DNA from: Eledone cirrhosa
Taxonomy: Eukaryota
NCBI GenBank assembly: GCA_964016885.1
Contig: OZ024753.1
Location: 35,154,001-35,218,000, forward strand
Direction of reading: 5' to 3'
Length of the DNA: 64,000 nucleotides
The translations under genes and the position numbers were made by a program. Below the pieces are notes generated by a model, which did no database searches, had not been told where the DNA came from, and saw only the letters and a list, made by a program, of their open reading frames with translations. Positions 1-50,612 of the stretch are shown here, in pieces (the stretch's first letter is position 1; the number at the start of each line of letters is the position of its first letter).

Positions 1-411
1 ATATATATATATATATACATATATGTATATATATAAAATACGGCGATAGCTTACATTTCTAATAATTTCAAATCCACTCGCTGTTTCAAAAATATTCTTA
101 CTTGACATTAGAGTCGCTAAGTTTATAGCTTCTAATTTGAATGGAAAAGGACGGGTGATGTGTTGGTGTAAATGGTAGCACAGTGGTCCGAATAACCAAA
201 AATGTGGGTTCAACTCCCATGTACGTCAATACTCATCTTTTTCCATTTCTCCGAGTGTTCTTAACCCCACTATCAGGCTAAATAATTTCTTTAATTTCTT
301 TAGTCAAAATACGGCGATATATACATACATATATATATATATATATACATATATATATACATATATATATATATACATATATATATGATGGCTGCCCCCT
401 CGTTATCGAGA

Positions 412-1985: not shown

Positions 1986-2464
1986 CAGGGAAAAGCAGAC
2001 GTAAAATGATGATATATATATTATGTATTTTATTATGATCAATGGCTTTCTTTATATGCATATTAATCATAATAAAACAAGATGCATTATTGCTATCATG
2101 AAACTGAACCTTATGAAAAAGATACAGTATTGTGCTGAGTAGTGATATGTTATAATGTAAAATACTTGGCCTCTCGTACAAACACTACAATACTCGAAGT
2201 AAACATGCTGACAAGCCAGAAGCTACAGTGTTTGGCAATCGAAATTAGATTGAGATAATATAGGGCTGGAGTGAACTCTCCTGTCTGGCCAAGCATGAGA
2301 TTACCTCTCTATTGCTGGTGCCACAATAAGATGCTCCCAGTAAACGTTGTAAGGTAGCACAATAAAATGCACCCATTACACCTTGTAGTGTCGGTACCAT
2401 GATAAAATGCACTTAGTCCACTCTTTAAGGAGTTAGTGCTGGTGTCATGAAAACCATTATCATG

Positions 2465-3645
2465 TTGGTGTCATGAAAAACATACCCATGCTGGTGTCAT
2501 GAAAAACAGAGCCATGCTGGTATCCTAAAAAACATACCCATGCTGGTATCATAAAAAACATACCCATGCTGGTATCATAAAAAAACATACCCATGCTGGT
2601 GTCATAAAAAACATACCCATGCTGGTATCCTAAAAAACATACCCATGCTGGTATCCTAAAAAACATACCCATGCTGGTATCCTAAAAAACATACCCATGC
2701 TGGTATCCTAAAAAACATACCCATGCCGGTGTCCTAAAAAACATACCCATGCTGGTATCCTAAAAAACATACCCATATGGTATCCTAAAAAACATACCCA
2801 TGCTGGTATCCTAAAAAACATACCCATATGGTATCCTAAAAAACATACCCATGCTGGTGTCCTAAAAAACATACCCATGCTGGTGTCATAAAAAACATAC
2901 CCATGCTGGTGTCATGAAAAATATACCCATGCTGGTGTCCTAAAAAACATACCCATGCTGATGACATAAAAAACATACCCATGCTGGTGTCATAAAAAAC
3001 ATAGCCATGCTGGTATCATAAAAAACATACCCATCCTGGTGTCCTAAAAAACATACCCATGCTGGTATCCTAAAAAACATAGCCATGCTGGTATCATAAA
3101 AAACATACCCATGCTGGTGTCCTAAAAAACATAGCCATGCTGGTATCATAAAAAACATACCCATGCTGGTGTCATAAAAAACATACCCATGCTGGTATCC
3201 TAAAAAACATACCCATGCTGGTGTCATAAAAAACATAACCATGCTGGTATCATAAAAACATACCCATGCTGGTATCCTAAAAAACATACCCATGCTGGTG
3301 TCATAAAAAACATACCCATGCTGGTATCCTAAAAAACATACCCATGCTGGTATCCTAAAAAACATACCCATGCTGGTGTCCTAAAAAACATACCCATGCT
3401 GGTGTCCTAAAAAACATACCCATGCTGGTGTCCTAAAAAACATACCCATGCTGGTGTCCTAAAAAACATACCCATGCTGGTATCCTAAAAAACATACCCA
3501 TGCTGGTATCCTAAAAAACATACCCATGCTGGTGTCATAAAAAAACATACCCATGCTGGTATCATAAAAAAACATACCCACGCTGGTATCCTAAAAAACA
3601 TACCCATGCTGGTGTCCTAAAAAACATACCCATGCTGGTGTCACA
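2465..3645. repeat. 26-bp minisatellite (aaaaaacatacccatgctggtRtcMt), about 45 copies, inside a decayed RTE-tail element (~2320-3830)
   Basis: Direct tandem repeats. The flanks carry the aaaatgcaccc...gtaaag units and an (ATG)n tail typical of the RTE 3' UTR. Confidence 0.92.
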
Positions 3646-10830: not shown

Positions 10831-11167
10831 ATGGCTTAGTGGTTAGAACATTGGCCTTGCAATCGAAAGGTTGTGAGTTCAATTCTCAGACCGGATGATG
10901 TGTTGTTTCCTTGAGCAAGACACTTTATTTCACATTGCTCCAGTTTACTCAGCTGTAGAAATGAGATGTTAGGCACTGGGGTCCATATCATTCCACTGCA
11001 AAGTGGTCGTGGAGGTGCCGCGGCAAAAAAGCACCCAGCACTCACTGTAAATGAGGTTGGTGTTAGGAAGGGCATCCAGCTGTAGAAATCAAGCCAAAAT
11101 CAGTTCCCGTCCCACCCTTGCAAGCAGGGAAAAAGCGGACGTAAAATGAAATGATGATGATGATGAT
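10831..11167 (+). mobile_element. SINE family A copy, head-to-head with 10158-10499
   Basis: Reverse complement of the 10158-10492 copy with few differences. Confidence 0.88.
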
Positions 11168-11645
11168 ATATATATACATATATATATATAATGTAGAAGG
11201 TGAGTAATATTGTAGAACAATAAAACTATGCATATATCAGATAAGTAGCACTCAACAATTGGTAGAACTGGAGTATATATTAAAGAAGTAATTAAAAGAT
11301 GGTTAAAATATATGGAACTTCTTTAACCATCTTTTAATTTCTTCTTTTATATATATATATATATATATATATCACATAATAAATGGAGAATCAGTGGTGT
11401 GACGAATTAAAATTTATCAGACATATTACAACATTTCTCTGGTGACCAGCTCGAGGCACAATCGATGCAGTTTCCAAATTTGGAAACTCTGCTTCGAAGA
11501 ATCGAGACGTATCTGAGGATCTTGCGATTTCAGAGTCAGGTTCGATCATCGCATCGATACTCTGCTCTGTAAGAGCATCGAGTGCTCAAACGGCCTACCG
11601 CATACGGACGCTTTAAGCATCCCACACCAATTATATATATATATA

Positions 11646-12047
11646 TATATTAATAAGAGGAATTCCAACTTTGTCTGATTTACTCGTTTTATTTACAATC
11701 CTTTAAAATTTATAATGGTATTATAATGAAATAGTATGATAGAATATTAAATGTTAAGTGTTAATTGAACAAGTACTTTCATTCTTTCGCAATCTTCAGG
11801 TTCATAATGTATGGTGACAGTCAAGTTTGCAATTTTCAACTATGTGTTCACAGTTGAAAATTGCAAACTTGACTGTCACCACACATTATGAACCTGAAGA
11901 TTGCGAAAGAATGAAAGTACTTGTTCAATTAACACTTAACATTTAATATTCTATCATACTATTTCATTATAATACCATTATAAATTTTAAAGGATTGTAA
12001 ATAAAACGAGTAAATCAGACAAAGTTGGAATTCCTCTTATTAATATA
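11646..12047. repeat. Long inverted repeat, 196-bp arms with a 10-nt spacer and one mismatch seen, flanked by (TA)n
   Basis: 11646-11841 vs 11852-12047, compared base by base with no indels. Confidence 0.95.
11889..11927 (+). ncRNA. Minimal type-I hammerhead motif (mirror copy at 11766-11804 on the - strand)
   Basis: TGAAC CTGAAGA TTGC GAAA GAAT GAAA GTAC TT GTTCA. 5-bp helix I, palindromic GUAC loop, CUU triplet. Helix II is weak. Confidence 0.75.
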
Positions 12048-40881: not shown

Positions 40882-42470
40882 GTGAGGCAGTTACAGGAAA
40901 AGTACCTAGCTAAAAGTAAGCCACTCTACTTGGCATTTGTCGACCTTGAGAAAGCCTTTGACAGAGTTCCACGTGTTGTAATCTGGTGGGCTCTTAAAAA
41001 ACTAGGAGTAGATGAATGGCTTGTGAAAGCGGTACAAGCCATGTATAGGGGAGCAGTCAGCAAAGTTAGGATTAGCAATGAGTATAGCGAGGAATTTAGC
41101 GTACAGGTTGGGGCCCACCAGGGCTCTGTTCTTAGACCCCTCCTGTTCATCATAGTCCTGCAGGCAATAACAGAGGAGTTTAAGACCAGATGCCCATGGG
41201 AACTCCTGTATGCTGATGACCTCGCGCTTATAGCTGAATCTATGGTAGAACTAGAGAAGAAATTCCAAACTTGGAAGCAGGGACTAGAAAGAAAGGGTCT
41301 CAAAGTCAACATGACAAAGACTAAGGTCCTTGTAAGTAGACGAGAAAACAGAACCCAGATCCCCTCAGGGAAATGGCCTTGCTCAGTATGTAGGAAAGGT
41401 GTAGGTAGGAACTCCATTCTCTGCCCCAAATGCAAACAATGGGTACACAAGAGATGTAGCGGGATCTCAGGAAGCTTAATTAAGAATGTAGGCTTCACAT
41501 GCAGCAGCTGTGCTGGGACAGCAAACAGCCACAGGAAACAAGTACCACCAATCTCTGGGAGGGCTCTGTAGAAACAGTAGACAGCTTCTGCTACCTAGGT
41601 GACCGAATTAGCAGCGGAGGTGGGTGTTCAGAAAGTACAATAACTAGGGTAAGAATGGGATGGAAGAAGTTTAGGGAACTACTACCACTGCTAGCTGCAA
41701 AAGGCTTCTCCCTCAGAATGAAAGGCAGACTGTATGATGCGTGTATCTGAACAGCGATGTTGCATGGTAGTGAGACCTGGGCGCTGAAGGTGGAAGACTT
41801 ACGTAGATTAGAGAGAAACGAAGCCTGCATGCTCCGATGGATGTGTAACAGTAATATACGTGAACGACAAAGCATAAATGAATTGAGAGAGAGACTGAGC
41901 ATAAGAGGAATCAAATGCTGTGTGCAGGAGAGGCGGTTGCGCTGGTATGGACATGTGATGCGTATGAAGGATGACAGCTGCATAAAAAGGTGCAGAGCAC
42001 TAGAAGTTGATGGAAACCGCGGAGTGGGGAGACCCAAGATGACCTGGGATGAGATGATAAAGCCGACCTTACCCAATTACACCTCTCAAAGGCAATGACA
42101 CACGACCGTGACCTCTGGCGTCACGCAGTAATACAGAGCACCCGACCTCCCATGTGTAGAAGCTGAAGCATATAGACAATATGCCCCCACACCCCCCACC
42201 GCAAGGTGGTCGTGGAGGTGCCACGGCAAAAAAGCACCCAGCCCACACTGTAAAGTGGACGTGTAGGCGCCACGAAAAAGCACCCAGCACTCACTGTAAA
42301 TGAGGTTGGTGTTAGGAAGGGCATCCAGCTGTAGAAATCAAGCCAAATCAGTTCCTGTATGAGCAAGGCATGGTCAGCCGACCAGACACTGCCCACAACA
42401 GGACAACCCGTCTAACCCATGCTAGCGTGGAAGAACGGACGTAAAACGGTGATGATGATGATGATGATGA
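40882..42470 (+). mobile_element. 5'-truncated, decayed RTE-clade LINE (partial RT, Cys-rich insert, thumb domain, 3' UTR, (GAT)n tail)
   Basis: FVDLEKAFDRV, HQGSVL.PLLF, LYADD, FCYLG, RRLRWYGHV, GRPK.TW motifs. Frameshift near 41520-41560 and an in-frame TGA at 41748. Inserted in a TA-rich tract. Confidence 0.93.
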
Positions 42471-45400
42471 TATATAATTTATATGTATATGTATATATGT
42501 AAGCATATATATGTATGCTTGAATATATGTAATGTATGTATGTATATATGTATGTTTATATATATATATATGTGTGTTTTTGTGTGTGTGTGTGTGTGTG
42601 TGCAACACATACAAATATGTATATATGCATATGTGTGAATACATGTATATACATTAATATATATTGAAATATACGTGCTACTTTAAGGGCACAGACCCTT
42701 ATAGATAGAAATACAAATAAAGTTGACGTACACATCCAAACCTTTCAGTAATTACTCATATTTTTGACATACTTCTCTTTTCCCTGTTTAATCGTGAGAT
42801 TTTATCAGTGTTCTTATATTCCTTATCTGCCACCTGTTTTTACACCTCCACCTAGTCCTTGGTTATCTTTAGTAGAATCTAGTATGTTGCAAGCATTCAG
42901 GCCAGATCTGTAGCTTGAGAATACCTTCCTCTCTTTCTTTCTCTCCTTGACTAAAAAAATTTTGAAAATCATTTAGCTTATAAAAAAAAGTCCCCCTCTC
43001 CACTGGAACCGTTTTCGTTTTATTTGAAAGTGGAAGACATTAAATACACTGCTAACTAAAACTAAACATCTCATATAGCCTTATAATAGCTCTATCAACA
43101 CACAAGAGGTTATAGAAACAAAAGAGCTTAAATAATTTACATTATCTGTCAGAGGTTGTTGAAAAATATAACATACTTATCTTCAGGTTTGAAGTTAATG
43201 ATTATAGTTTTTTTATGATATGTCAAATAAACCTTAAGAGATAGGTTTACAGAATTGTAAAGTAACTATTATTGCTAAATACAAAGTAACTGTTTCCGGG
43301 TGTATTAGGGTGGAAGGTGGAGGTGGGTGCTCCTAAGAGCCAGTGCTTATTGTATGTTTGATCTTCACTAAGATACCAATCTATTAGAAGTAACATTTTT
43401 TGACAGCAACATAAACTAAAGGTAGTAAAATAAAGTGTACATCCCATATCATCATTTCATTATCATCTTTTTAGTTCCATTTTTCGATATAAATGAAATA
43501 TCTGCAGAGAATTTCAGCTCTAAAGCAAAGAGTTATTCAGATAATACCATAACTCAGCCATTTCCTCTTCTACAAGAAACTATTGACTTAATTTAAACCT
43601 TTCTTTTTCTCATTTGAGTAGGGAAACAATCTTTATTTAATGAAATTGAAAAATAATCCATTATATAAAAGAAAATCTAATAATTAGCTTTTGTTCTGGC
43701 TATTTACATTCTGAGTTCAAATCTTTTTGAGATCAACTTTGCATTTTGGGGTCGATACAATAAATAAGTTAGCATGTTGAACAAATCCTAGTGCTCCTAA
43801 AAACCAAACCTTACAATATTAAACAAAAAAGGACAAATTGAATAATGAAGTCTTAGATACCTATAAACAGACTGCAGTGGGCATGACTGCAGTTTCTTTG
43901 ACCATAGCTCTACTTGATCATGATTGGTTTGGGACTAAACAACCACAATATATATTAAAAAAAAAACAAGATTTCATATTTGTTATAAAAAAATAGATAA
44001 ATATAAAAAATAATTGTGTGTTATATGTGTGTGAATATATGTCTGTTACATGACAATGTAAATCACTGATTAAACCAGTTTTGTTATTTTCTGAAATATT
44101 CCTTTTGATTTTTTTAAACACTATCTTTATTTTTTTATAATTTATGTTATCATCATAATATGATTTCAACCTATAATATCTGTTTAATAGATCTTTCCAC
44201 TGTGATAGTGGTTGCTTTAGAAAACAATCTAGTTATTTGTAGCAGAACTTATAATCAATATATCTTCCAGCTCACCAATTTTCATTTCAGAAATCAATTG
44301 CCTTAAACTTTATTTATTGATGCAAATTAGTTCTTAACTTACAAGCAAATAAACAACAAAAAGGAGAAAATAAATAAATGAATGCATGAAGCTACAGGGA
44401 GAATGAATACACTATTTAAAATCCTTTCTTATCTTTTATATATTCTTTGCTTTATATATAATCTATAATGATTTAGCGGAATATCAGTTCTCTAATCAAA
44501 ATGTAGCATATATATTGTTAGAGGGTATTAAACATATGATAGTGAAAGTCATATAGTTGCAAACATAAGTGACCGATATGTTGCCTAGAGCCGTATATTT
44601 TATGTTGTATGTTATCACTACAAAACATTGAATGTTCTATCATACTCTTACTTAGCTACAGAACAGGTATTAAAGGAGAAAAACTATCTTATTGAATAAA
44701 AAAAAAAATAAAAAAATGTTAAATGCAAATTGGTGATAAATGTAAATTAATAGTTTGTTGCTTTATCAAACTGAGATTTGAAAAGACATCATATTATAAT
44801 GATGCTAATGTGACAATAGTGAAGATGGGTGGCTTAGTGGTTAGAGAATTAGGTTCATAATCATGAAGTTGTGACTTTTATTCCTGGGCTAGGTGATGCA
44901 TTATGTCCTTGAGCAAGACACTTTATTTCATGTTGCTCCTTCTGCCAGGAATTGTGATTGGCTGATAGTATCAGTAGCTGAAAAGACTAATGAAACATTG
45001 TTTTCTTGGTTCGATCTGACAAGTTCCACCACACTCAGTAAGAGAATGAAGTTTGCGCCCCCGCCCTCCCCTCTTCATCCCCAATAATTATATATTTTCT
45101 CCCCAAACTACCAAAACACACATCTATTTGTATATGTGCTACAATTTATGTACATTTTATGTTTATCGCATAACAAATTTTTTTTATATCTTGGTTGATA
45201 TTTGATAATAACAACTAAACTAATCATTACAACTAAATTGACCAAATTTGCCCAGCCCCCAATTCAGAAATGCTTCCTCTGCCCCTGCTTACAATGTGAA
45301 CTAGTTGTATTTTATCATGTCACTGGCATTGGTGAGATTAGATTGTTCCATGTGGAAGAACTAAAGAGTCTCCCTCTATTCTGTATTTCTCCTAGATGGG

Positions 45401-45844
45401 TTGGCTGTGAAACAGCCTGGAAAGATCATGTCTCACTTATACATTTCATTTTTTTCACATGACTTCTAAGGTTTGTCTAACAACAACCATTTTAAAGTGT
45501 GTACTATTAAGAAAACACACAATTCCTGTTTGTCTGTAACAGATGAACTAAAAACTTTTATCGGTGTTGCTGACTAGTCTAAAATTTTGCATATATTCTA
45601 ATTGTTAGAAATCATTTTTAATTAATTATGAAAATAATCAATATCTTCTGTCTTTGTGCGTTTCTCTGCATATACGCAGCCTCTATTTACACCATCATCA
45701 TCATCAGGATACACACCCACATACACATATACATATATATATTGTTATATTTGGGGATGGTCATTTGCCAATATTGGCAGGTTCAATCAGGGGTAACCAC
45801 AGTAAGTAGGGTACTCAATACATAGTAGGGTATATAATGTTTAA

Positions 45845-45889
45845 TTCCTGATGATTTCCTTCGAATGAAACAGTTCTGATCCTGTAGAA
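45845..45889 (+). ncRNA. Type-I hammerhead motif. Degenerate relatives at 18909-18958 (-) and 12405-12452 (+).
   Basis: TTC CTGATGA TTTC CTTC GAAT GAAA CAG TTCTGATC CTG TA GAA. Intact core, 4-bp helix III, GUA triplet, but only a 3-bp helix I. Confidence 0.7.
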
Positions 45890-47149
45890 GCCATTTATAT
45901 ATTAAACATTATATATATATGCTAAAAGTAAATGGAAAACAACAAAGAAAACAATCCAGTACAATGAAGATATATATTAGTTTAACACTTGATATAGTAG
46001 GAAAAGAGTCTTTATGTTTCGGATGCTAGTCCTTCAACAGAAAATAGAATGAGAAATAAAAGATGAAATAGAAAGAGAGAAGAGAGTGAGAAGTGGGAGA
46101 AACCTTATTATTATTGTTATATGGCGGTGGATTGGTAGTATCGGTAGAGCGTCGGAGACCATGCTTTGTGGCATAGTTACATATCTTTACATTCTGTGTT
46201 CAAATCCCGCTGAGTTTAGCTTTGCCTCTTTCATCCTTATGTGATCGATAAAATAAAGCACCAGTAATTCACTGGGGTCTGTTTAATCGATTTGTCCCTC
46301 CCTAACAATTGTTGGCCTTGTGCCTAAATCAGAAACCATTATTGTTGCCACTGTTGTCTTTGGCGTCATTATCATAATCGGTGTCAGCGTCCTCGTGATC
46401 ATACTTTTGATATCCAATCTATTGAAATGTATATAATTAATAGACGCCATGGTAAAAAGCAGCCAGTACTCACTGTAAATTAGGTTGGTATAAGGAAGGG
46501 CATCCAGCTATAGAAATCAAGCCAAAATCAGTTCTGTATGAGCAAGACATGGTAATCTGACCAGGCATTGCCCACAACAGGACAACCCATCTAACCCATG
46601 TTAGCATGGAAGAATGGACATAAAACGGTGATGATGATGATAATAATTATTATTAACATTATTGTTTTAAACATCATTTTAAAACAATGTAAACTGTTAA
46701 AATTATAACGAGGTATTTAAAAAAACAAAATATAAATTAAAAAAACAATCATGTTTTGCATAATTTATCCCTAAACCCTCTTCATGTAATGAATACAGCC
46801 TACATTCAGGTTTGAATATGCTTCTCAGATCTATCAATAGGTTATTGCCATCATAATTGTATTTTGTTAAAAAGGAAAAAAAAATATGTTAGCCTTTGTA
46901 AATATTATTGATTCATGATGTTTGTGTAATCAATATTGAAAAAGTACAAGTTTCACTCTGAAAATTCAGTTGTGCAGTAACTAGAAAATACTAAGTTAGA
47001 TTTTGGATAAATGCCTTATATATAAATCTGAGAAAAGAGAGGAAAAAATGCCAAATAATAAAAAAATATTATAAACATTGCAGAATTTTATTATCCTCCT
47101 GAAATAAGTTGTAAACAGTATGAACATTCATTTCTGAATACTATATATA

Positions 47150-48008
47150 TATAAGTATGTACACGTACATACATATATGTATACAGACGTACAGTAGTAT
47201 GTATATATATACATACATGCACACATATATATATGTACGTATGGATTCACCGAACATTTATTATAATGCTCGGTGTGTTTGTAAACAAACATCCCGTATT
47301 AAGCCGTAGTGTCTAGCAACCATCGTTGCTCGTTTGTTCAACACTGACAAAGGAACGCTGTACTAGTTTCAAGCTTATTAGCTATCGTCAGCAACGTATA
47401 CCTTCCTGCCAGATTGTTGAACGTATATACTTATCTTATGCATATTAACGGCTGAGTAGCCCAATTTGCATATCGAGTGGGTTAATCGGCCGGGTGCACC
47501 GAAAACGATAAACGGAAAAAATGAAACGAAATTTCATTTCCCACTCTTAGTACGTCTGTTACTTAAATATAAGTATGTACACGTACATACATATATGTAT
47601 ACAGACGTACAGTAGTATGTATATATATATACATACATGCACACATATGTACGTATGGATTCACCGAACATTTATTATAATGCTCGGTGTGTTTGTAAAC
47701 AAACATCCCGTATTAAGCCGTAGTGTCTAGCTTGCTACAGCGTTCCTTTGTCAGTGTTGAACAAACGAGCAACGATGGTTGCTAGACACTACGGCTTAAT
47801 ACGGGATGTTTGTTTACAAACACACCGAGCATTATAATAAATGTTCGGTGAATCCATATGTACATATATATATGTGTGCATGTATGTATATATATATACA
47901 TACTACTGTACGTCTGTATACATATATGTATGTACGTGTACATACTTATATTTAAGTAACAGCCGTACTAAGAGTGGGAAATGAAATTTCGTTTCATTTT
48001 TTCCATTT
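47150..48008. mobile_element. Retrozyme-like or Penelope-pLTR-like composite: ~1.4 tandem copies of a ~415-nt HHR-bearing unit on the - strand, joined head-to-head to a ~270-nt copy on the + strand
   Basis: 47151-47317 is repeated at 47569-47731 (offset 414-418). 47736-48008 is the reverse complement of the unit and starts at the HHR cleavage site. (TA)n on both sides. No ORF. Confidence 0.8.
47355..47397 (-). ncRNA. Intact minimal type-I hammerhead ribozyme motif
   Basis: Minus strand reads ACGTTG CTGACGA T AGCT AATA AGCT T GAAA CTAG TA CAGCGT. This gives a 6-bp helix I, a CUGANGA core, a 4-bp helix II, a palindromic CUAG helix III and a GUA triplet. Confidence 0.88.
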
Positions 48009-48120
48009 ATATATATATATGTACGTATTTATGTACATATATTATTATTTATGTATATATATAACTGTATATATATATATGTTGATTTAAAACTGCACTA
48101 TTCACAAGTGTTTTTTAACC

Positions 48121-48191
48121 TATTTTATCTGATGAAAATGCAAATGTCATCGCATGATGATATTTGTTTTTGAAATGCGCATAATAAAATA
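48121..48191 (+). ncRNA. Intact type-I hammerhead ribozyme motif
   Basis: Helix I TATTTTAT/ATAAAATA (8 bp). Core CTGATGA at 48129-35. 16-bp helix II with one T-T mismatch and GCAT loop. GAAA at 48172-75. Palindromic helix III TGCGCA. AUA cleavage triplet, with the cut predicted at 48183/48184. Confidence 0.88.
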
Positions 48192-48314
48192 CATGGAACT
48201 CTTTTAACCATCTTTTGATCTTATGTATTATTTATACTCCAGTCCTACAAACTGTAGAGTGCTACTTATCCGATATCTGCATTGCTTTATTGTACTACAA
48301 TAAAACTCACCTCC

Positions 48315-48352
<38 letters not shown>

Positions 48353-49761
48353 CTGTTGCTTAAACCATTTTGTTTGTTTACCCTAGCGTCCCCTTTATTT
48401 ACGTGTCCCAACGACTTTTTTTAGCCGTTGCTCGCACCAACCTGAGGTATATGGTCTTTAAAGCGATGAAATGCCTATGACGGTTGGAAGACCACTGATG
48501 AAGGACAAACTTTTTCATATGTAACCCATTTGCAACGCCGCAGCTCCATTATTATCATATTTACACACACATATATATATATATATATATGTGTGTGTGT
48601 CTGTGCATATATATATATACATACATTTATGCATGTATATATTTATGTATATACATATCTATGTGTGTATATATATATATATATGTGGGAGCGTGTGTGA
48701 GTATATATATATACATTTATGCTTGTATACATTTATGTATATATATATATATATATATATTTAAATGTGTGTGTGTGATATTCCTGACTAACAATGTGCT
48801 TGACTATAGAGACATGGGAGGTAGACTAAACACCAGCAATAGATATATTGATTGAACTAATAACTTCATCTTCTGCATTTCTGTTTATATTTGTCTCAGT
48901 TAGGACTGTGGTATTGTTGCTTATAATATTAAAACTCAGTATGACAACAAAGTTGCTGAGCAGTGTATATCCTGTGTATAGGAATATTGGTTGAAGATTA
49001 TTGCTGAGTATACTGTTTGGAATAGTACTTTCTTTTTACAGTTTTACTAAGGGAGGGAAGGAAGACTGTGTATTGGCAAAGTTCTTAAAACATTAACCCT
49101 TTAGCATTTACATTACTCTATATATACTATTGTATTTTTGTGGTAAAGGCTTTATCTCACATAATATCGAATCTATGAGATATCGATATTTATTTTGAGA
49201 ACAATACCTTAACATCAGTATGAGCAACCGGTTACAGCCGGTTTGAACAGAAAGAGGTAAGAGGTAATCTGGCTGGATATGGATTTTTTAAATGCTAAAG
49301 GGTTAAATAGAATGAAATTAGAAATAGAAGCTTTTGCTGTATTTTTTTTTTTACTAAAGAAATTTTGATCTGATAAACCCTCTGAGAAATGGAAAAAGAT
49401 GAGTATTGACGTCAATACTCATCTTTTTCCATTTCTTAGAGGGTTCTAAACCCCACTATCAGGCTAAAATTTCTTTAATCAAAACAAATACTCATTCGCT
49501 ATTTCAAAACATACTAATTTGTCATTAAATAGAATGTTTTGTGATATTCATTTTAGCTCTCTGTGCTGCTGAGGTCAACTTTGCCTTTCATCATTTTGAG
49601 TTCTATTCTTCCTCTATCTCTCTCTCACACACACTCTCTATGTCTCTCTCTCCCTCCCCCTCTCTCTCTCATTAAAATATTTCTTACATTATGAAATAAA
49701 ATTATTCCCAATTGTGATCTAATTGCCTAGAACATAATCTATTTTTTTGTTTTTCTTACAG

Positions 49762-49991
49762 CATGCTACAGCTGGAGCACCTCAGCCTTACCGACAAGTC
49801 CTCCTCCAGCAGCACACCCACAGCTTCACCAAAGTCAGCACCCGTAACACCCACACATGACACCACTAATGGAGTCGATGTGGGCTATCGAGATGGTAAC
49901 CAACGCAGCTTCTTTGAAGGGTTGCTTGGGTGTCTGCGTCCTGTGTGGACAATTATCGGGAAGGCAGCCGCTGCTGAATTTAAACAGCAAG
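49762..49991 (+). CDS. MAP3K13: DLK/LZK-family MAP3K exon with the conserved N-terminal motif FEGLLGCLRPVWTIIGKA
   Basis: ttttcttacag acceptor and G|gtacac donor. The motif matches vertebrate DLK/LZK FLEGLFGCL(R/K)PVW..IGKA. Confidence 0.93.
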
Positions 49992-50612
49992 GTACACAAC
50001 ACTTACTATTTCTTTTTAGCTATGTTTTCAATTATCTTGTTTTCCCCAAGTTTTATATTACAGAAAAAATAAAAACAAGAGGAAATATTACTCTAAAGAA
50101 AGATCCCTCAGTAGTTAATAAAATCCTGACATGGTCTTTAACAGCCCTCTATCATCTAGCTTTATGCAGTATTCATTCTTCATTTCCTTCTCAATCAACA
50201 GATTATTTACTTTGCCATTATGCCCTTTAGAGCTTATCCTGAAATAATAATCCACCTATACCTCTAACCCCACCTGTCCTTCGTTTAATGGCTGATCTTA
50301 TTTTATATCACTTTTGTTTGGTTCATCTTTGATACCAGAATAAAAATAAGTTTTAAAGTTAACATATTGATTTGCAGAATTTTGAAGACTAAAGAGTATA
50401 CACCATTATTCTTTATCAATAGTTTCCAGAGGAAATTTTGTATCAATATTTTTAATAAAAGTCTCATTTCTCTCTATGAATATCTTCAAATTGAACCTTT
50501 TTGTTCCAACTTGACTAAAACTGGCTCTTGTTCTGTAAAACAAACCACTCATTTTTGAAGGATCCTATTTAAATTAAAATCTTCCAACACAATTTTATAT
50601 GAGAGCTATATA

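What the first reader, a model, noticed from the sequence alone, without database searches (positions are those of the whole stretch)
48121..48191. Fully intact hammerhead in sense orientation inside the 13.4-kb DLK/LZK intron
Seen: all core nucleotides are present, with an 8-bp perfect helix I, a 16-bp helix II, palindromic helix III (A-UGCGCA-U) and an AUA triplet. It lies ~1.6 kb upstream of the exon at 49762 on the transcribed strand. Known: palindromic helix III HHRs typically cleave efficiently only as dimers, and intronic ribozymes can cut pre-mRNA co-transcriptionally. Inference: it might cleave DLK pre-mRNA, possibly in trans with transcripts from other family copies, and so affect splicing or dosage of an axon-injury kinase. 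It may also be neutral.
Basis: partly seen in the sequence, partly recalled or inferred. Interest (0 to 1): 0.75.

Follow-up and report, generated by a model that had tools for sequence, protein, structure and literature searches.

The report
Repeat-borne hammerhead in octopus kinase intron
A real self-cutting RNA motif sits in an intron of an octopus nerve-injury kinase gene, but it is one slightly damaged copy of a common jumping-gene fragment and most likely does nothing to the gene.

Summary
The motif is real: a type I hammerhead at 48121-48191, sense to a confirmed 13,428-nt intron of an octopus MAP3K13 (DLK/LZK) gene; 0 of 200 shuffles give one. It is not a gene-specific device. It lies in a ~235-bp repeat between (TA)n tracts; 3,286 contigs of one same-species run and contigs of two related organisms align to it, and family variation keeps the fold (variable N7 and loop, probable A-U/G-C swap at 10.1-11.1). 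It looks like a Penelope-type pseudo-LTR or retrozyme fragment; no link to a Penelope ORF could be tested. 'Fully intact' overstates: helix I is all A-U, helix II is 15 of 16 pairs, helix III does not form in a monomer, and this copy lacks a 17-nt segment that many family copies carry and that can extend helix I. A homodimer is predicted stable, so in vitro cleavage is plausible; cleavage within the minute or so before the next exon is unlikely. An untouched core is expected in a copy this young. No RNA data, and no orthologous copy shown. The scan reached a similar reading earlier in another genome (e1-7858566). Verdict: ordinary retroelement passenger.

The parts
48083..48317 (+). Copy of a dispersed ~235-bp hammerhead-bearing repeat (Penelope-type pseudo-LTR or retrozyme fragment); 5' boundary approximate
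   Evidence: 3,286 contigs (X1), 4,827 reads (X21), 57 (X5) and 187 (X6) contigs laid; depth starts in bin 48078-48088, with 47990-48086 masked as simple repeat
48121..48128 (+). Helix I, 5' strand (8 A-U pairs with 48184-48191)
48129..48135 (+). Catalytic core CUGAUGA (C3-A9); N7 at 48133 varies U/C in the family
48136..48171 (+). Long helix II: 15 of 16 pairs, U.U mismatch at position 4, 4-nt loop; A10.1-U11.1 here, probably G-C in about a fifth of family reads
48172..48183 (+). GAAA, palindromic helix III (48175-48182) and AUA triplet; predicted cut after 48183
   Evidence: palindrome duplex -10.5 kcal/mol
48184..48191 (+). Helix I, 3' strand; start of the predicted 3' cleavage product
48118..48119 (+). 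Place where many family copies carry a 17-nt pyrimidine-rich segment that this copy lacks; the segment can pair with 48191-48195 and so extend helix I past a bulge
   Evidence: 177 of 344 X21 reads at this place carry it, 236 more are clipped with the same letters, loose ends agree in X1 and X5; duplex -4.9 kcal/mol
48008..48082 (.). TA-rich tract on the 5' side
48318..48349 (.). (AT)16 tract on the 3' side; likely insertion target
11166..11355 (.). Second, core-less family copy as a fold-back between (TA)n tracts: + arm 11304-11355 matches from 48185, one base after the predicted cut; - arm 11308-11193 matches 48202-48317
   Evidence: 81% and 83-85% identity
36334..49761 (+). Host intron of the MAP3K13 (DLK/LZK)-like gene, 13,428 nt
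36161..36333 (+). First coding exon (from ATG; residues 1-57)
   Evidence: 100% to P0001
49762..49991 (+). Second coding exon, downstream of the hammerhead
47146..48010 (.). Neighbouring insertion of a different hammerhead family: partial tandem of a ~415-nt unit on the - strand with an intact-core hammerhead at 47391-47361 (antisense to the gene), plus an inverted copy whose match starts at 47736, two bases before the predicted cut product

Best explanation
The hammerhead belongs to a mobile element, not to the kinase gene. A non-coding retroelement family of the Penelope/retrozyme kind carries a dimer-type type I hammerhead whose job, in the source elements, is to cut tandem precursor RNA (inferred). 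A short reverse-transcribed piece of it landed in a (TA)n tract of the DLK intron, in sense orientation by chance (inferred). The copy is young enough to keep its core but lacks a 17-nt family segment that extends helix I (shown). In the pre-mRNA it is single, cannot form helix III alone and competes with AU-rich flanks (computed), so it cuts slowly or not at all before the next exon is made, and DLK mRNA is little affected (inferred, not measured).
For: High-copy family in the same species and in two related organisms; crude RAD depth equals about 1,300 genome copies at the core, order of magnitude only. Family variation respects the fold: 8 of 9 stem substitutions keep pairing (p~0.02 against a coin-flip null), the ninth (U48171C, 278 of 1,412 reads) matches A48136G (175 of 817 reads) in frequency, and 0 of 11 core positions vary against 15 of 71 overall (p~0.06). 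(TA)n flanks, alternative 3' ends at about 48216-48236 and 48317, and an inverted truncated copy match the described architecture of Penelope-like insertions. Small palindromic helix III and enlarged helix II are described for Penelope hammerheads, which mostly occur as single truncated motifs with low activity; one needed its protein to cleave. 31 Penelope-like families are recently active in O. vulgaris. At 1-3% divergence from the family majority an untouched core has probability 0.68-0.91 without selection. Four other repeat families with hammerhead-like cores sit in the same 64 kb, most of them decayed. Slow intronic ribozymes are reported not to affect splicing (Fong 2009, seen only as cited).
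Against: No cleavage or RNA measurement exists for this copy. The active homodimer is predicted stable (ddG -6.1 to -11.9 kcal/mol; -7.9 and -9.8 against the monomer ensemble for the bare 71-mer), so cleavage with a partner is possible. The 8-bp helix I and 15-bp helix II are more perfect than many Penelope minimal motifs. No Penelope ORF was linked to the family. The missing segment may mark a subfamily rather than damage private to this copy. The orthology test had low power, so conservation at this site is not excluded.
Confidence: 0.78

Rival explanations
1. Accidental, unselected cleavage: the copy pairs through its palindrome with abundant family RNAs (for example retrozyme circles or linear monomers) or with a sister nascent transcript, and cuts a minor share of DLK pre-mRNA, lowering output slightly without being a regulatory adaptation.
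For: Homodimer predicted favourable in three contexts; the UGCGCA palindrome and helix I are largely shared across the family; mussel retrozyme RNAs accumulate to high levels and cleave at ~0.1 per minute.
Against: Only 1,578 nt separate the cut from the 3' splice site, about 0.4 min at the mammalian rate quoted; Penelope-type motifs cleave weakly even as dimers; this copy lacks the helix I extension. One large read class changes the palindrome (G48177U, 1,182 of 2,558 X21 reads, probably few loci).
Confidence: 0.12
2. Domesticated regulator: the hammerhead has been kept to limit or tune DLK/LZK mRNA, as proposed for amniote RECK-type intronic hammerheads and shown for the CPEB3 HDV-like ribozyme.
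For: Sense orientation in a confirmed intron near a 3' splice site, full core; precedents exist.
Against: Embedded in a young multi-copy repeat; no piece in X5 or X6 spans the stretch, and their longest pieces carry several differences; no canonical helix I 6-bp/helix II 4-bp loop-loop geometry; intact core expected from youth.
Confidence: 0.05
3. On identity only (compatible with a neutral role here): the family is a non-LTR retrozyme, a non-coding ~250-nt unit that spreads through circular RNA and is opened at a (UA)n tract, rather than the end of an autonomous Penelope element.
For: Size 235-252 nt and low GC fit 170-400-nt metazoan retrozymes; no ORF; the neighbouring family forms a ~415-nt non-coding partial tandem.
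Against: Single copy, no tandem here; no joint from the 3' end back to the 5' end listed, though TA tracts were masked; inverted truncated copies and alternative 3' ends are Penelope traits.
Confidence: 0.35
4. Chance match in AT-rich DNA.
For: Loose core patterns do occur by chance (mean 3.3 per shuffled window); Rfam does not score it.
Against: 0 of 200 shuffles for the structured pattern; structure-preserving variation in the family.
Confidence: 0.01

Closest known systems
Type I hammerheads in pseudo-LTRs of metazoan Penelope-like elements (Cervera and De la Pena 2014, PMC4209133)
   Same: Type I topology, small palindromic helix III, enlarged helix II, dimer dependence, mostly single dispersed truncated copies, inverted copies nearby, AT-rich or microsatellite targets.
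   Different: Helix II is much longer (15 pairs against 6-8), helix I longer (8 against 4-5), no extra base between positions 9 and 10.1, A-U instead of G10.1-C11.1 in this copy; link to an RT/GIY-YIG ORF not shown.
Metazoan non-LTR retrozymes, e.g. Mytilus galloprovincialis 350-390-bp repeats (Cervera and De la Pena 2020, PMC7229834)
   Same: Molluscan, non-coding, low GC, unit of a few hundred bases with one type I hammerhead lacking the usual loop 1-loop 2 residues; thousands of copies.
   Different: No tandem at this locus; no circular RNA shown; fold-back copies in (TA)n.
Conserved intronic hammerheads of amniotes (RECK, CTCL, DTNB; as reviewed in PMC6155905) and the CPEB3 intronic HDV-like ribozyme (PMC10274809)
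   Same: Self-cleaving motif on the sense strand of an intron of a protein-coding gene.
   Different: Those are conserved across a clade; CPEB3 has a measured 2-3-min half-life matched to a 9.9-kb distance. This one is a young repeat copy, 1.6 kb from the exon, with no conservation or activity shown.

Membership tests
Type I hammerhead ribozyme | Core C3 U4 G5 A6 N7 G8 A9, G12 A13 A14, A15.1-U16.1, H17 in a three-helix junction opened at helix I | tested here: met
Type I hammerhead ribozyme | G10.1-C11.1 first pair of helix II (highly conserved) | tested here: not met
   A48136-U48171 here; G and C each in about a fifth of X21 reads, linkage not shown
Type I hammerhead ribozyme | Canonical loop 1-loop 2 contact (6-bp helix I, 4-bp helix II) | tested here: not met
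   8-bp helix I, 15-pair helix II; the family's helix I extension is missing in this copy. A non-canonical contact is not excluded.
Type I hammerhead ribozyme | Score above an Rfam hammerhead model threshold | tested here: not met
   no hammerhead family among 2 gathering hits in the window or 97 hits at E<=10 in 45000-50000
Type I hammerhead ribozyme | Self-cleavage at H17 | not testable with these tools
   no assay; no RNA holder listed
Penelope-like element (PLE) hammerhead | Short palindromic helix III, dimer-type fold | tested here: met
   monomer helix III probability ~0; dimer favourable
Penelope-like element (PLE) hammerhead | Dispersed multi-copy family with truncated and inverted copies in AT-rich or microsatellite targets | tested here: met
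Penelope-like element (PLE) hammerhead | Located in a pseudo-LTR beside an RT plus GIY-YIG ORF in full-length copies | not testable with these tools
   no genome held; two metagenome scans found nothing; no ORF of 80 aa or more over the element
Penelope-like element (PLE) hammerhead | Extra unpaired base between positions 9 and 10.1 | tested here: not met
   helix II pairs symmetrically from 48136
Metazoan non-LTR retrozyme | Head-to-tail tandem of 170-400-nt units, each with a type I hammerhead | tested here: inconclusive
   size fits; single copy here; TA flanks masked, so tandems through TA could not be seen
Metazoan non-LTR retrozyme | Expressed as small circular RNA | not testable with these tools
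   no RNA run laid; no RNA holder listed
Domesticated intronic ribozyme | Conserved at the orthologous intron position across species | tested here: inconclusive
   family present in X5 and X6, but no piece spans the stretch in any contig run, X1 included
MAP3K12/13 (DLK/LZK) host gene | Kinase exons and N-terminal region match DLK/LZK | tested here: met

The most novel reading that the evidence does not exclude
A dimer-only hammerhead in an intron acts as a transcription-rate sensor: it is silent when DLK is transcribed sparsely, but when polymerases follow closely (as after axon injury), two tethered nascent transcripts, or one transcript and an abundant family RNA, pair through the AUGCGCAU palindrome and both helices I, cut, and cap DLK output. 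With on the order of a thousand family copies, the same would apply to many octopus introns. The predicted dimer stability allows this; nothing here shows it.
Probability: 0.05. Interest if true: 0.8.

Novelty: new member of a known kind. Interest (0 to 1): 0.2.

Why it matters
As it most likely stands, it adds an octopus family, with an unusually long helix II, to the well-known hammerheads of Penelope-like elements and retrozymes; my searches found no paper on octopus hammerheads, but thousands per genome are the rule in invertebrates. A side result is more useful than the DLK idea: two fold-back copies from two families begin within two bases of their predicted cut sites, which, if general in the genome, would show that ribozyme-cut RNA is the template for insertion, a role still called unclear in print. 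If the copy did tune DLK mRNA, it would be a retroelement ribozyme co-opted to regulate an axon-injury kinase in a cephalopod.

Tried and rejected
No whole genome is held, so no genome-wide count or Penelope ORF link. Rfam: no hammerhead hit; taken as model mismatch, since the structured pattern beats shuffles. Sequencing runs: no RNA holder listed; no evidence either way. Metagenome scans with two patterns: 0 matches each. Viral contigs: 9 pattern matches, none with the fold (helix I 2-4 of 6 pairs, helix II 1-3 of 6); rejected as chance. Read ends piled at 48174 (1,142 molecules in X21) were rejected as a sign of cleavage: it is a DNA RAD library and the same read class has G48177T, which makes an AATT site there (the enzyme is my inference); 48251 is probably similar. 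The depth rise across 48144-48198 was not accepted as proof of starts at the cut site: it is gradual, no strand-changing joint at 48184 is listed, and none of the 23 loose ends shown (of 180) lies there; one X5 contig folds back at the helix III palindrome instead. The unfavourable in-context dimer energies (+4 and +13 kcal/mol) left the flanks unpaired and were replaced by constrained folds. A third structured match at 15033-15001 (-) has a core change and was left as possible chance. Earlier notes near this place or like this sequence: none. Lunse 2017 and De la Pena 2010 were not held. PMC3365414 and PMC5688996 passages gave nothing that I use. Repeat finder output was swamped by microsatellites.

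Full report
Observation. The sequence at 48121-48191 (+) holds a type I hammerhead: 8-bp helix I, CUGAUGA, a 36-nt helix II domain, GAAA, the palindrome AUGCGCAU and an AUA triplet, with the cut predicted at 48183/48184. A structured search finds 2 matches in the window (this one and 47391-47361 on the - strand) and 0 in 200 local shuffles at helix I >=6 bp. Rfam has no hammerhead hit.

Host gene. The exon at 49762-49991 is 100% identical to a protein named MAP3K13-like of Octopus vulgaris, and a kinase exon matches solved DLK best. Eight exons map on + between 36161 and 55399; the intron 36334-49761 is 13,428 nt, and a 16-residue junction peptide is present in 3 of 3 proteins checked. So the motif is in the pre-mRNA, 1,578 nt before the 3' splice site. 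The species is O. vulgaris or a close relative (inference).

It is part of a repeat. The 135 nt after the cut recur at 11166-11355 at 81-85% identity as a fold-back between (TA)n tracts. Laying four runs on 47990-48317 gave 3,286 contigs (X1, same species), 4,827 RAD reads (X21, same species label), 57 and 187 contigs in two other organisms. Depth runs from about 48083 to the (AT)16 tract at 48318, with further 3' ends into (TA)n at about 48216-48236. RAD depth at the core equals about 1,300 copies for a 2.8-Gb genome (size derived); RAD coverage is uneven, so this is an order of magnitude only.

The family looks like a working ribozyme. Of 71 positions, 15 vary at >=10% in X1 or X21, none of them among the 11 core positions (p~0.06), while N7 and the helix II loop vary freely; 8 of 9 stem substitutions keep pairing (p~0.02 against a 0.5 null), and the ninth, U48171C (278 of 1,412 X21 reads), matches A48136G (175 of 817), which together would give the canonical G10.1-C11.1; linkage on one molecule was not shown, and in X1 the C is only 1% of depth. 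This is selection in the source elements, not at this locus.

This copy is young and not complete. It differs from almost all family depth at 2 of 235 places and from the X1 majority at about 8, so an untouched core has probability 0.68-0.91 with no selection. It lacks a 17-nt segment behind 48118 carried by 177 of 344 X21 reads there, with 236 more clipped on the same letters and matching loose ends in X1 and X5. That segment pairs with 48191-48195 (-4.9 kcal/mol), extending helix I beyond a pyrimidine bulge, where type I hammerheads place their tertiary contact (inference). Whether the loss is private or marks a subfamily is not settled.

Predicted activity. As a monomer, helix III has probability ~0 and closing it costs about 3 kcal/mol; helix I drops to 0.4 in 131 nt and 0.02 in 335 nt of context. 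Published behaviour of the class: no cleavage as monomers and low cleavage as dimers for Penelope motifs (PMC4209133, parts 1-2 of 4 read; PMC6765202, passages); protein-assisted cleavage and no RNA ends at the site for the Anolis element (PMC11167929, parts 1-2 of 4); ~0.1 per minute for a mussel retrozyme and 6-22% in an hour for axolotl monomers (PMC7229834, section 14 and passages). Fast intronic ribozymes block splicing and slow ones do not (Fong 2009, seen only as cited in PMC10274809, passages). At the 3.5-4.1 kb/min quoted there, the next exon is reached in about 0.4 min; an octopus is probably slower, but a half-life near a minute would still be needed (inference).

What kind of element. 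(TA)n targets, truncation, adjacent inverted copies and optional 3' extensions are described for Penelope-like insertions (bioRxiv 2021.04.23.441226, passages), and 31 Penelope-like families are recently active in O. vulgaris (PMC13282606, part 1 of 3 and passages). Size and lack of an ORF also fit a retrozyme. I could not decide: no genome, no hits in metagenome scans. I put Penelope-derived at about 0.6 and retrozyme at about 0.35. The window is rich in such debris: an intact-core antisense hammerhead in a ~415-nt partial tandem 740 bp upstream, an inverted pair at 11799/11894, three decayed copies of one family at 12411, 18953 and 45848, and two of another near 1475 and 48494 (the decayed ones judged by eye).

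Conservation. No contig in X5 or X6 spans the stretch and their longest pieces carry several differences, but none spans it in X1 either, so the test has little power. Amniote intronic hammerheads are filed as domesticated because they are conserved across clades (PMC6155905, passages); that is not shown here.

Side result. The + arm of the 11166-11355 copy matches from 48185, one base after the predicted cut, and the inverted copy of the neighbouring family matches from 47736, two bases before its cut product. A third fold-back (11655-12045) turns about 45 nt upstream of its core, so 2 of 3 fit. The laid reads do not confirm a general pile-up there. It is a lead on the open question of what Penelope hammerheads do.

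Novelty. Searches for octopus or cephalopod hammerheads and for a MAP3K13 intronic ribozyme (0 papers) showed no such report by title; two cephalopod repeat papers contain neither word (PMC8967140, passages). Supplements that I did not open (motif lists of PMC4209133 and PMC7229834, repeat library of PMC13282606) and Lunse 2017, which is not held, may already list this family. An earlier scan note reached the same kind of verdict in another genome; it is not independent evidence. DLK's role in axon injury is recalled, not taken from a call.

Verdict. Real motif, real intron, ordinary origin: a young, partly deleted retroelement hammerhead, most likely neutral (0.78); incidental cleavage 0.12; domesticated regulator 0.05. 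Interest 0.2.

Noticed in passing
window 47508-48010: Near-perfect ~230-bp hairpin (MFE -381 kcal/mol, z -50) in the DLK intron, 110 nt upstream of the hammerhead; a likely substrate for A-to-I editing, which is extensive in coleoids (recalled). It may matter more to the pre-mRNA than the ribozyme does.
   Followed up: partly
window 47391-47361 (-), element 47146-48010: Second hammerhead with full core, 6-bp helix I, U.U at 10.1/11.1 and palindromic helix III, antisense to the gene, in a ~415-nt non-coding partial tandem with an inverted copy that starts at its predicted cut site.
   Followed up: partly
window 11304 and 47736-47738: Fold-back copies of two different families begin within two bases of their ribozyme cut sites; a third fold-back (11655-12045) does not. 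Possible genomic footprint of reverse transcription of cleaved RNA.
   Followed up: partly
window 11655-12045: 98%-identical 390-bp palindrome with a hammerhead-like motif in each arm (11799 -, 11894 +).
   Followed up: partly
window 12411, 18953 (-), 45848; 1475, 48494: Decayed hammerhead-like cores in two more repeat families; 45848 and 48494 are sense within the same DLK intron.
   Followed up: partly
window 40234-42098: Frameshifted reverse-transcriptase remnant (LYADD motif) on + inside the same intron; looks like an RTE-type LINE by eye, not searched.
   Followed up: no
window 156-229 and 23811-23868: tRNA-like matches; the second recurs as a repeat and is probably a SINE head; the first is called Phe by ARAGORN but aligns oddly.
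   Followed up: no
window 27506-28795 and 2398-3466: Tandem arrays of 99-nt and 26-nt units.
   Followed up: no
Read laying X6, 48155-48220: In organism C the family keeps GAAA, the palindrome and helix I 3' strand but has a different helix II, with C at 11.1 in 97% of depth.
   Followed up: no
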